NCBI GenBank assembly: GCA_951406725.2
Contig: OX597817.1
Coordinates: 174,034,001-174,098,000 of the forward strand
DNA length: 64,000 nucleotides
Direction: 5' to 3'
Source: Octopus vulgaris
Taxonomy: Eukaryota
In this document: positions 21,640 through 25,800 of the stretch, piece by piece
Position numbering within the stretch: position 1 is the first letter of the stretch
How the letters are laid out: every line of letters begins with the position of its first letter
Notes under the pieces: generated by a model
Seen by the model: the letters and a program-made list of their open reading frames with translations, nothing else
The model's database searches: none
Told to the model about the DNA's origin: nothing
Program-made: the position numbers and the translations under genes

Positions 21640-21958
21640 CTTAGTCACAACTGACCGTGAGATTGCACCTAGAAAGTTCCCCTCTGAGGCACAAGTCCAG
21701 GCAAGGTTGTTTGTTAGAGACCAGCAGTTGCCCATGCATACCAGCCTCCCCTCTCCACACCACTGATGTTGTCTAAGAGAAAGACAAAGGCTGATACAGC
21801 TTGGCACCAGTGATTTTGCAACTCATCTCTACAGCTGAGTGAACAGGAGCAATGTGAAGTAAAATTGTCTTGCTCAAGAACACAACACACGGCCCAGTCT
21901 GGGAATTCAACTCACAATCTCACAATTGTAAGCCTGATGCTCTGACCACTGAGTTATG
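21640..21958 (-). mobile_element. tRNA-derived SINE with a CORE-like domain
   Basis: Minus-strand head CTCAGTGGTCAGAGC...GTTGAATTCC, then GTGTTGTGTTCTTGAGCAAGAC; a related head is at 50750-50995. Confidence 0.65.
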
Positions 21959-22604
21959 GCTGTGTGTGTGTGTGTGTGTATGTGTGTGTGTGTGTGTGTG
22001 ATCATCATTATCACACGTCCATTTTCCATGCTGGCATGTGTTGGACGATTTGACAGGAGCTGGCAAGCCAAAGGAATGTGCCAAGCTTTATTGTCTGCTT
22101 TGGCGTCGTTTCTAAGGCCGGATGCCTTTCTTTCTTAACACCAGCCACTTTATGAAGTGTCCTAGGTACTTGTTATGTGGTGCCACTACCAGCAAGGTCA
22201 AGTAATTTGCAATACAAGACCCCTCCCCCCCCCAACTTAGTATGGAGTCGTATTGAGAGAATCAGATTTGTACCAGGTAATGAGAAGCTGAAGTATAATA
22301 GTTGGATGGACAGAAACAGGTGTCTTTCTGTAAAGGAGATAAGTGGTTATCCCAGTGTGGGGAGGGAAGGAGAGAGAGAGAGAGGATGGTGGTGAAAATG
22401 TGTTCAGATGTATCTTCAAGTTACAGGTAGGTGAATATAAATGAAGTGATACTGAGATTTGGACTGGATAGACACACACACACATTGGTAATTCATAATC
22501 AGAGATTACCAATTTAAAAATCCTTGATTTTCATTTTATAGTGTCTTTCATTTACATTTTTATATATTAAGGTATATAACTAGTTTCATTGCAACTTTTT
22601 ATAG

Positions 22605-22808
22605 AGATGTACTCGCATAGCAAGTAATTTGATCTGAGATCGTGTGCTGAAACGAAAACAATTGCAGCGTGGAAGGTGTTTATAAGCCATTTAAGAAACA
22701 CACAAAAGCCGTTCGATTCACTTCAACATTTAAGTTTAATTTGTCAAAATATTTTCGTCGCTAAAATCCGCAACCTGTTCACTGACAAAAATCCGTGCTG
22801 CATCTGCA
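22605..22808 (-). mobile_element. 204-bp non-coding insert with a 9-bp TSD, carrying a hammerhead motif
   Basis: TTTTTATAG duplicated at 22596-22604 and 22809-22817; CpG-rich relative to flanks. Confidence 0.75.
22741..22788 (-). ncRNA. Minimal type I hammerhead ribozyme motif with a G3:C8 swapped core
   Basis: Minus strand TTGTCA-GTGAACA-G-GTTGC-GGATTTTA-GCGAC-GAAA-ATAT-TT-TGACAA: 6-bp stem I, 5-bp stem II, palindromic AAUAUU stem III, UUU triplet. Confidence 0.65.
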
Positions 22809-25800
22809 TTTTTATAGCCTTTTGATAAAAACCTTTTTTCTTTAAAATTTTGTAAACTTTGTTTTATGGTTAGTTGTTTGTAAGTCCTTTAATATCATTA
22901 TTATTATCATTTTCTATGCTGACATGATCTAGGAAAATTGTCATGACCCGTGTCAGTTCTTAATCAGACTTATTGTTCTCCTGGTCAGGTTAGAGAGGCA
23001 CATCTCACTTGTATGTTTCATTCTGGCTTACTTTCTATGGCTAAATGCCCTTTGTCATACAAACCTCTTTACCAAGTATACTGGTGCATTTTAGTAAATG
23101 ATATAAAAAAAAATCACAATAGCATAGCTATAGCATTTACACTTTAATATTAGTAGATTAGACTGCTTAAATGTAGCTCGATGAGTCACATCTGCCATGT
23201 ATATTGTGTGTGTTCAGTCTATATGTACGATTAGTTTGATTACAAAACAAATAGTGTCAGAGGTATCATAAATTTAAGAATCAGAATTGAAGGTTTTTAT
23301 GTACTAACTCTACAGTCCTTGGTTAAATAATATATGTACCATACTTCCTATGTATCTATCCACCTGCTCATCCATCCATCTCTCCCTCCCTCATTAAGTA
23401 TTCAATACACCCTTATGTTTGAAATGTGTTGAGTTTTTATTCAGTCATTTCTTCTTAATCCATTGATGTGCTTAGTTAACCTAAAAGCTGATTGAACAAA
23501 ATCTTGGTTTTGATAGAATCGTAACAGATGCAAACTTCTCACAATTTCAAATATTGTGGCAGTGAAGTTAATTTGGTTATTTAACAGTTTTCAGATATCA
23601 AAACTTGTTTTAAGCATAGGGATCTCTTTACACAAAATAGTTTATTCACCTCTGTCTGTCTAAACAGAAATAGTTCTCTTTCTGCTTGGGTTAACCATCG
23701 TTAAACTACACTTTATCCAGGCTGACTCCTATTTCTTAACTACAAATGGAAAGAGATGGAAATTTATGTTTTAGGAGTCACTTTGATCCAGGAAAATGAT
23801 TTGGTTTCTTGGAAACCAAACTAATTCCTTAAACATTCACCACACAAATAATATAGATAGATAGATAGATAGATATCACTTTTTTTTAAAACATTCCCTT
23901 TTCCATGGTTGTATAGATTGGACAGAATTTTGTTGAAGCAGGTTTTCTATGGACAGCTCAATTCCTGTCACCAGCCTTTACTTGTTTCTAAGCAAGGTGA
24001 TATATTTCTCCATAACCAGATATGTTTTCATGGAAGATAGGGAACGAAAGACACTGCTTGTATGATGTTGGCATTTGCTTGCGACTGTTATGTGATGTCA
24101 AGGCATAGAGGCAATGACATGCACGCAGGCTACAAAAGAAAATAACTTGCCCTAGGTGCTCAGCAGAAGACATTTGCCCAGGCTGCAGGATTGAATCTGG
24201 AGCTATGTGGTTGACAAGCAAACTCCTTACCATGCAGCCATACTTGTGCTAGACAAAGATTTAAATAATTGCAATGGTTAGTGATTAGTTCAGCCATTCT
24301 TTTGGCATATTTGTTGTGATTTTTCATCTGTCTTAAATATGACAGCATGATCTTATCATCTTATAGCTTATCTCAATGTTGTTTAAGTGATTCTATTTAT
24401 ATTAACTAGTTAGTGAAGCACTCAGTGGAGGGATTAACTGATGAATGATTAGAATGCTTACAGCACTGACATGGAGGAAGTTAGGGTTCCAGATTAAAAA
24501 AAAAAAATGTTGATCTTCCATTTGTGAATGCTTCTTCATGAATTCATTTTTGTGACCCCATTATATGCAATTGTTTTGTGTGTGTGTGTGTGTGTGTTTA
24601 TATATAAAAAAATACATCATTGTTTTAATGCCCACTTTTCCATGCTTGCATGGATCAGATGGGGTTTGTTGGGGTAGATTTTCTACAGCCGGATCAACTT
24701 CCTGTTGCTAATTTCCAAGCAAGGTTTTATTTCCTCATAGCCAGACTGTTTTTAAGGAAGATTGGCAATAAACAATGCTCATTTACAACCACCACTTTGT
24801 CAAAACAAGTGCTCTCTCACACACACACATTTCTGTATGTCCATTTGTCTATGATGGTCTTCTTTCAGTTTCCTTTCACCAAATCCACTCAGGGCTGTAG
24901 TCAACTTGGGGTTATAGTAGAAGACACTTGTTGAAGGTACTATACAATGGAACTGAACCTGAAACCACATGGTAGGGAAGTATACTTCTCAACCAACCAC
25001 ACAGCTATGCCTGTGTGCATATGCATGCACATGTGTGCATATGCATTTTAATACTAGTACTTGTATGAATTAACAAATAAAACTGAATTCCACTACTCAA
25101 CAAGGAAGCTTGTATGTGATATTTTAACTCATTAGAAATAGAAGCCTGCTCTCTCCTGTCACATCCTACTGTATAAGTTTTTGTGTTACGAGAAGTGAAT
25201 TCTGGCATTTGATGCATGGCCCTTCTTTGAAAAATAAATGACAAGTTGTTTAACCTTAAGTTATCCCTTATTGATCTAATCTATAAACAAAAACAAAAAA
25301 AAAAATGTTCATGCTATGATCATCGTATCTCTGTGTTATATTATTCAATGTGTCTTTTTATAAAGACCTTTTTGTGGTTTGAAAGCAATTTGCCTATTTC
25401 TTGTAGGTTGAGTATCAATGTTGGGGTTCTCTTGGTTTGATTCAATAGAAAGTATATTGGCATGTTATAAGGAAAATTGAACAAAGTAAGAAAAGGGAGT
25501 GATGGTTAGTCACTGAGACTGGTGGTAGGTGGTCCCTATGAGATAGAACAACATAGAGAAACAGAAATGAAGAGAGAGGTAATGGGTCAGGAGTCAGACA
25601 CATACCTTTGCTGTTAAGAAATTCCCTTTGCAGTCCTGTGATTTCGGGTTTGATTTCACTGCATGGCACCTTAGAGAAGTACCTACTATTATCATAGCCT
25701 CGGGTCAACCAAAAGACTTGTGAAACTGGTTGATGGTTAATTGCATGCAAACCCATTAAAGTAAATATGTATATCAGTTTGGGAGAGAAAATCAGCGTGG

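What the first reader, a model, noticed from the sequence alone, without database searches (positions are those of the whole stretch)
22596..22817. TSD-flanked mini-element carrying a hammerhead with a natural G3:C8 compensatory core
Seen: a 204-bp insert between TTTTTATAG direct repeats. Its minus strand has complete type I hammerhead architecture (stem I UUGUCA/UGACAA, stem II GUUGC/GCGAC, GAAA, palindromic stem III, UUU site), but the core is GUGAACA instead of CUGANGA. Established: positions 3 and 8 form a tertiary Watson-Crick pair in the active hammerhead, and the C3G/G8C double mutant rescues activity in vitro. Inference: both changes together preserve that pair, suggesting a selected, functional variant that CUGANGA-based searches would miss. 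I cannot check whether it has been reported.
Basis: partly seen in the sequence, partly recalled or inferred. Interest (0 to 1): 0.85.

Follow-up and report, generated by a model that had tools for sequence, protein, structure and literature searches.

The report
Swapped-core hammerhead in Penelope retrotransposons
This 204-base insert is one of thousands of copies of the front end of a Penelope-type jumping gene, and the whole lineage carries a hammerhead self-cutting RNA fold whose paired core letters are swapped (G3:C8 instead of C3:G8), a form I found in print only as a lab-made mutant and which likely still cuts, slowly, though cutting is untested.

Summary
Observation confirmed, with two corrections. 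The core has an extra G before stem II, a known mark of Penelope-element hammerheads. The insert is not a separate mini-element but a solo pseudo-LTR of a Neptune-like Penelope retrotransposon: thousands of copies, continuing in other copies into an RT/GIY-YIG ORF whose ATG lies inside the insert.

G3:C8 is lineage-wide: 93 of 100 and 72 of 75 young copies, 17 of 25 decayed old copies. Sister families in the same genome keep C3:G8, and a tree of downstream DNA separates the two (99/99). It is one ancient double change, kept while N7, loop II and stem III changed.

Copies mostly start at one initiator-like site (42 of 98), often after an extra G (15 of 23), and show no cleavage-site ends. The template is therefore likely capped, uncut RNA.

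Activity is untested. The engineered swap only partly rescues, and a G3·U17 trap is predicted. Natural U3:A8 is published; I found no natural G3:C8 in print, but could not read Lünse 2017. This scan noted G3:C8 motifs beside Penelope-like RTs in two other genomes (unchecked). New variant of a known kind.

The parts
22596..22604 (.). Left copy of the 8-9 bp target-site duplication
   Evidence: the base at 22604 also fits the family's last base
22809..22817 (.). Right copy of the target-site duplication
22605..22808 (-). Solo pseudo-LTR of a young Neptune-like Penelope element (5' UTR with hammerhead, plus ORF start and tail)
22801..22808 (-). Shared 5' boundary (AGATG; A at 22805), likely the capped transcription start; in this copy the junction reads as a 6-nt duplication of the first bases
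   Evidence: 42 of 98 copies start within 71-78 nt of the anchor; G before AGATG in 15 of 23; capped start is inferred
22783..22789 (-). Hammerhead stem I, 5' strand
22776..22782 (-). Core strand GUGAACA: G3 at 22782, N7 at 22778, C8 at 22777
22775..22775 (-).
   Evidence: feature of PLE minimal hammerheads in PMC4209133
22757..22774 (-). Stem II and loop II; U at 22772 is this copy's own change (family C)
22747..22756 (-). GAAA, palindromic stem III (AAUAUU) and U17; predicted cut between 22747 and 22746
   Evidence: cut site predicted from the NUH rule, untested
22740..22746 (-). Hammerhead stem I, 3' strand
22604..22690 (-). First 29 codons of the element's RT/GIY-YIG ORF (ATG at 22690)
   Evidence: same reading frame continues into the ORF in L291
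22605..22656 (-). About 52-nt optional 'tail' between the two common 3' ends of copies
   Evidence: loose ends at 22604 and 22656/22657; short and long copies

Best explanation
The insert is a solo pseudo-LTR of a Neptune-like Penelope retrotransposon whose lineage carries a minimal type I hammerhead fold with a swapped G3:C8 core pair, likely a slow but still active ribozyme that would need a partner copy or the element's protein to cut.

Shown: family membership, position in the 5' UTR upstream of the ORF's ATG, lineage-wide G3:C8, C3:G8 in sister families, one shared 5' start and two 3' ends.

Inferred: the element is transcribed as a capped RNA starting about 59 nt before the cut site. The element's protein nicks AT-rich DNA and starts reverse transcription internally, about 150 or 200 nt from the cap, so that most insertions are 150-200-bp solo pseudo-LTRs copied from uncut RNA. 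The ribozyme would act only on a minority of RNAs (read-through or tandem transcripts, or decapping), which would let an attenuated core persist as long as the 3:8 pair is kept.
For: PLE identity: the ORF has a C-terminal GIY-YIG (Pfam E 9e-5 and 2e-5), with RT-like motifs and a C-x3-C-x2-C linker read by eye. The unit lies behind the ORF's 3' UTR and runs on into the ORF start in 5 of 11 loci. Inverted truncated partners and (TA)n flanks are common.

G3:C8 counts: 93 of the first 100 listed of 6,590 (0 C3:G8, hand count); 72 of 75 copies with that half among 98 picked by a downstream anchor; 17 of 25 old copies picked by similarity, with no C3:G8 (query and 4 copies lacking the 5' half dropped).

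Sister families: a pattern with positions 3, 7 and 8 free gave 70 C3:G8, 12 G3:C8 and 18 others in the first 100 of 1,119 (hand count). A tree from DNA downstream of the ribozyme splits the two types 99/99. The 3:8 pair is a standard pair in 17 of 17 chosen rows.

Retention, old versus young subfamily: 76% identical overall, spacer 35 of 47. Thirteen core positions are unchanged (P about 0.02 at the spacer rate), N7 changed, stem III went AAUU to AAUAUU keeping the palindrome, and one stem I pair went G-C to U-A (read).

Literature: in an anole PLE hammerhead, C3G/G8C partly restores cutting, cutting needs the protein, uncut RNA is the main template, and RT starts at two internal sites (PMC11167929).
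Against: No cleavage was measured. Only 1 of 98 copies begins at the cut site, and that junction is explained by an inverted repeat.

The swap is one event. Given two changed positions, 3 of 9 outcomes are Watson-Crick by chance, and the path needs an unpaired, probably inactive intermediate.

The MFE extends stem I with G3·U17, a trap 1.3 kcal/mol below the open core. The double-hammerhead dimer (-28.8) is less stable than two monomers (2 x -15.4), and the dimer MFE is a different structure.

Most paired copies in the genome are inverted, not tandem, so a cis dimer partner is rare. The retention P value is modest and rests on one pair of subfamilies. Many G3:C8 rows were found with patterns that fixed G3/C8 or the core, which is circular. 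The G before the start is in some copies part of the flank or target duplication (L227/L228), so the cap origin is inferred.
Confidence: 0.62

Rival explanations
1. The G3:C8 fold is catalytically dead or negligible and is kept as a structure (protein-binding or template-folding element of the pLTR RNA), not as a ribozyme.
For: No cut-site 5' ends in 98 copies; predicted G3·U17 trap and unfavourable dimer; hammerhead mutants did not affect insertion in vitro (PMC11167929); a young sister subfamily has spread with C at position 9 (11 of 13 printed rows), so core changes can be tolerated.
Against: The unpaired catalytic positions (U4 G5 A6 A9, G12 A13 A14), the NUH site and the stem III palindrome are kept between subfamilies while N7, the one free position, changed. 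A purely structural role would not predict that pattern.
Confidence: 0.23
2. The swap is a chance double change in an ancestral master copy that hitch-hiked; the surrounding conservation reflects DNA-level promoter elements just downstream of the start site, or short divergence time.
For: Single origin on the tree; the motif lies at +17 to +66 of the likely start, where internal promoter elements could sit (inference); the retention P is only about 0.02.
Against: Pair-preserving changes in stems I, II and III point to an RNA structure; G3:C8 persists in further diverged rows with other loop II sequences.
Confidence: 0.1
3. The 204-nt unit is an independent non-autonomous retrozyme or SINE that spreads through its own cleaved, circular RNA.
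For: 93 of 98 sampled copies do not extend 5' of the unit; clean target duplication here; retrozymes derive from pLTRs (bioRxiv 10.64898/2026.07.22.740005, abstract and opening sections).
Against: The unit is 97-98% identical to the pLTR of ORF-bearing copies and contains the ORF's first codons. Copies start upstream of the cut site rather than at it, and no head-to-tail arrays of the unit were seen in the loci examined (not searched genome-wide).
Confidence: 0.05

Closest known systems
Minimal type I hammerheads (min-HHRs) of metazoan Penelope-like elements (Cervera and De la Pena 2014, PMC4209133)
   Same: Located in the pLTR; extra nucleotide between 9 and 10.1; G10.1-C11.1; palindromic, unstable stem III; mostly solo copies; inverted pairs.
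   Different: Core is G3:C8. Among the 56 representatives in Fig. S3 none has G3 (53 C3, 3 U3), though that search began from a C3/G8 descriptor. The extra base is G here, whereas the consensus there is H.
Natural U3:A8 core covariants (PMC3088659 section 8; Cercyon elements in PMC4209133)
   Same: Natural double change that keeps the 3:8 Watson-Crick pair, including in a PLE family.
   Different: U3:A8 is two transitions and reachable through a U·G wobble; G3:C8 is two transversions that invert the pair.
Poseidon element of the green anole, PAc (PMC11167929)
   Same: Hammerhead at the pLTR/ORF start, two internal RT start sites giving a tail, AT-rich targets, uncut RNA as main template; the engineered C3G/G8C mutant is the state found here naturally.
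   Different: Poseidon clade, no Zn-finger-like linker; natural core is C3:G8; the ATG lies inside the ribozyme there but 56 nt after the cut site here.
Neptune/Nematis EN+ PLEs (PMC8557442)
   Same: RT, Cys-rich linker, C-terminal GIY-YIG; (TA)n bias; partial tandems and inversions.
   Different: Tail about 52 nt rather than 30-40; clade placement not tested against reference RTs.
Non-LTR retrozymes (PMC7229834; bioRxiv 10.64898/2026.07.22.740005)
   Same: Short, AT-rich, type I hammerhead, PLE-related.
   Different: Retrozymes are non-coding tandem repeats; this unit is a solo or inverted pLTR of a coding element.

Membership tests
EN+ Penelope-like element | Single ORF with RT and C-terminal GIY-YIG endonuclease | tested here: met
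   GIY-YIG above Pfam cut-off; RT motifs (DVVSLYPSI, YVDD) read by eye, no Pfam RT hit
EN+ Penelope-like element | Pseudo-LTR: same unit at the 3' end and overlapping the ORF start (partial tandem) | tested here: met
   (L291 shows 3' UTR, unit, then ORF start)
EN+ Penelope-like element | Inverted 5'-truncated partner copies and an optional tail | tested here: met
   tail about 52 nt
Neptune/Nematis clades | Zn-finger-like Cx2-5CxxC linker between RT and EN | tested here: met
   C-x3-C-x2-C in P0002, read by eye; definition from PMC8557442 passages
Neptune/Nematis clades | RT phylogeny groups with reference Neptune elements | not tested
   no reference RT set was fetched
PLE minimal hammerhead | Literal CUGANGA core consensus | tested here: not met
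   GUGAACA; hence filed as a variant, not a plain member
PLE minimal hammerhead | Watson-Crick pair between positions 3 and 8 | tested here: met
   G3:C8 in sequence; covaries with C3:G8 in sister families; the pair itself is inferred from sequence
PLE minimal hammerhead | Stems I and II, G10.1-C11.1, extra base after position 9, GAAA, palindromic stem III, NUH site | tested here: met
PLE minimal hammerhead | Match to an Rfam hammerhead model | tested here: inconclusive
   no hit, but canonical C3:G8 sister motifs in L140, L149 and L155 also give none
PLE minimal hammerhead | Site-specific self-cleavage | not testable with these tools
   no assay; genomic 5' ends show no cut-site signature
Non-LTR retrozyme | Non-coding head-to-tail repeats of the unit with two or more hammerheads | tested here: not met
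   solo, inverted or ORF-linked copies in the loci examined; not a genome-wide tandem search

The most novel reading that the evidence does not exclude
A highly successful retrotransposon lineage has run for a long time on an inverted-pair (G3:C8) hammerhead that is selected as a deliberately slowed or protein-gated ribozyme, tuned so that most capped RNA escapes cutting; the same inversion has arisen independently in other Penelope-like lineages, and a whole class of such ribozymes is missed by CUGANGA/UUGANAA searches.
Probability: 0.3. Interest if true: 0.72.

Novelty: new variant of a known kind. Interest (0 to 1): 0.5.

Why it matters
It is a natural version of a textbook rescue mutant: the C3G/G8C inversion kept across subfamilies, next to homologous C3:G8 families in the same genome. 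That gives ready-made matched pairs for asking how fast a Penelope hammerhead has to be, and what it is for, which is still open (PMC8557442, PMC11167929). It means search descriptors should allow any Watson-Crick 3:8 pair.

The copy ends also give genomic support for the in vitro model that Penelope elements are copied mostly from uncut RNA by internal initiation, and add a likely cap signature.

Tried and rejected
- Rfam scans found no hammerhead here or in canonical sister motifs, so the blank is uninformative.
- The whole-insert folding z-score is not significant.
- Cleavage-site signature among 5' ends: none (1 of 98 exactly at the site, 3 within 2 nt, similar to neighbouring positions).
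- A broad G3:C8 pattern was mostly chance (1,265 matches against 1,002 for the control). Two recurring repeat families in it lack stem II by eye and were rejected.
- Target duplications are not general: 1 of the 30 closest copies had a clean non-microsatellite one (this copy), and 4 of 12 resolvable solo copies, two of them microsatellite and two duplicates of one locus.
- Expression: no RNA holder listed on record, so no evidence either way. No empty-site joint was among the listed joints (25 not shown).
- A splice-site explanation for G3 or C8 was considered (branch-point-like and acceptor-like sequence just upstream of the start; weak donor at position 10.1). I set it aside because copies begin only 23 nt before G3 and no matching spliced joint was listed (contigs only).
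- L141 (A3:C8) was mislabelled into the C3 group by my script, which explains the two changes reported; L175 and L187 were dropped there because the pattern missed them.
- Only 6 of 20 wanted extra regions, shortened, could be fetched for the tree, so family sampling is thin.
- Lünse et al. 2017 (PMC5785218) is not held.

Full report
Observation. TTTTTATAG occurs twice on the + strand of the window, at the two boundaries. Two details differ. There is an extra G (22775) between A9 and G10.1, and the GUUGC strand of stem II is this copy's own change from the family's GUCGC (most reads of four public runs show the family base). Stems I and II are in the MFE fold, but the insert as a whole folds like its shuffles. 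Rfam gives no hammerhead hit here or for canonical sister motifs.

What it belongs to. The window lies in a 2.8-Gb, AT- and microsatellite-rich genome whose taxon no call named. The 40 best-scored matches are 98-100% identical. A 22-nt core pattern has 6,590 matches and a downstream anchor 8,639, both with 0 in the control. [quoted passage not shown] In 5 of 11 loci holding the ORF's N-terminal part, the unit's 3' end runs directly into the ORF, and the ATG lies inside the unit at window 22690. Inverted truncated partners, (TA)n flanks and two 3' ends about 52 nt apart are common. These are the features described for EN+ Penelope-like elements of Neptune/Nematis type (PMC8557442, passages). 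The insert is therefore a solo pseudo-LTR.

Is G3:C8 real and lineage-wide? With positions 3, 7 and 8 free, 93 of the first 100 listed matches were G3:C8, 7 had one change and none was C3:G8 (hand count). Of 98 copies picked by an anchor outside the ribozyme, 75 retained that half and 72 were G3:C8. An intermediate subfamily with a different loop II keeps it. An old subfamily, found by similarity and about 18% from its own majority, has G3 in 21 and C8 in 20 of 25 copies, both in 17, and no C3:G8. In four runs under four organism codes no other base reached 3% at either position (weak, contigs only).

Sister families. A scaffold pattern that leaves 3 and 8 free returned 70 C3:G8, 12 G3:C8 and 18 other combinations in the first 100 of 1,119 (hand count). 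C3:G8 hits sit beside related ORFs of 38-57% identity in 6 of 30 loci. A tree from DNA downstream of the ribozyme separates 18 G3/C8-lineage rows from 14 C3-type rows at 99/99. In a 17-row alignment the 3:8 pair is GC 9, CG 7, UG 1, and one stem II pair swaps GC/AU. These rows were chosen, and many were found by core patterns, so the counts show covariation between families, not independent events. The swap is one event; it is derived if C3:G8 is ancestral, as the published set suggests.

Selection. Between old and young subfamilies (76% identical overall, spacer 35 of 47) thirteen core positions are unchanged (P about 0.02), N7 changed, loop II changed, stem III lengthened by two bases while staying palindromic, and an outer stem I pair changed G-C to U-A. 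This favours a maintained hammerhead-type RNA, modestly. Against activity: the predicted G3·U17 extension of stem I, a double-hammerhead dimer about 2 kcal/mol above two monomers, and the need for an unpaired intermediate on the way from C3:G8. PMC3884650 (passages) describes the analogous C3-G17 trap and notes that a G3-C8 variant is less active with C17 than G17, so U17 may be a milder context (inference).

How copies arise. Of 98 copies, 42 start within an 8-nt window at AGATG, 5 extend further and 1 starts at the cut site. In 15 of 23 copies that start there the preceding base is G, where the element has C or T (P about 8e-7 against 18% G; two of them share one duplicated flank). I read this as a capped Pol II start at an initiator-like site, with reverse transcription starting internally about 150 or 200 nt downstream on uncut RNA. 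The cap reading is inference from recalled behaviour of LINE reverse transcriptases. It matches the anole element, where RT starts at two internal sites, uncut RNA is the main template, cutting needs the protein, and C3G/G8C partly rescues (PMC11167929, parts 1-2 of 4 read).

Prior knowledge. U3:A8 is a published natural covariant (PMC3088659, section 8 and passages; PMC4209133, parts 1-2 of 4). None of 56 representative PLE hammerheads has G3 (supplement parts 1-2 of 3). Searches for natural G3:C8 (with 9, 22, 37 and 87 for context) returned only engineered cases. I saw passages only of PMC8495972, PMC6765202, PMC6155905, PMC7151607, PMC11014351, PMC10085705 and PMC7229834, and part 1 of 5 plus passages of bioRxiv 10.64898/2026.07.22.740005. 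Lünse et al. 2017, the largest PLE-hammerhead survey, was not held; it, its supplements, bioRxiv supplements and subscription papers could hold a prior example. This scan's notes list G3:C8 motifs beside Penelope-like RTs in two other genomes; I did not check them.

Verdict. A real, lineage-wide natural core variant in a known kind of element, with activity likely but untested. New variant of a known kind; interest 0.5.

Noticed in passing
L063-L074; L038:4550-4610: A young subfamily of a sister Penelope family has C at core position 9 (CUGAUGC) in 11 of 13 printed rows among the best matches, while older relatives have A9: a second natural core variant.
   Followed up: partly
L218, L220, L258, L260, L261, L265, L286: Seven of 98 sampled copies share one identical head-to-head inversion junction, suggesting a palindromic composite of two pLTR halves that was multiplied as a unit.
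   Followed up: no
L002:1703-1730 (- strand), just upstream of the unit in long copies: A branch-point-like ACTAAC, pyrimidine tract and AG end exactly at the shared start site, so the site could also serve as a 3' splice acceptor in read-through transcripts.
   Followed up: no
window 22726-22734 (- strand): A three-codon upstream ORF lies in frame, 39 nt before the main ATG; the two ATG contexts form an 8-nt direct repeat.
   Followed up: no
L040:225: An unrelated canonical minimal hammerhead (CUGACGA plus extra A) with a 4-bp stem II, found by my descriptor scan.
   Followed up: no
L149, L150, L162: In one C3:G8 sister family the first pair of stem I appears mismatched or bulged.
   Followed up: no
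window 21887-21963: Sub-threshold Rfam match (Plastid-ycf2, 27.9 bits) that looks like a tRNA-derived repeat fragment next to a (GT)n tract.
   Followed up: no
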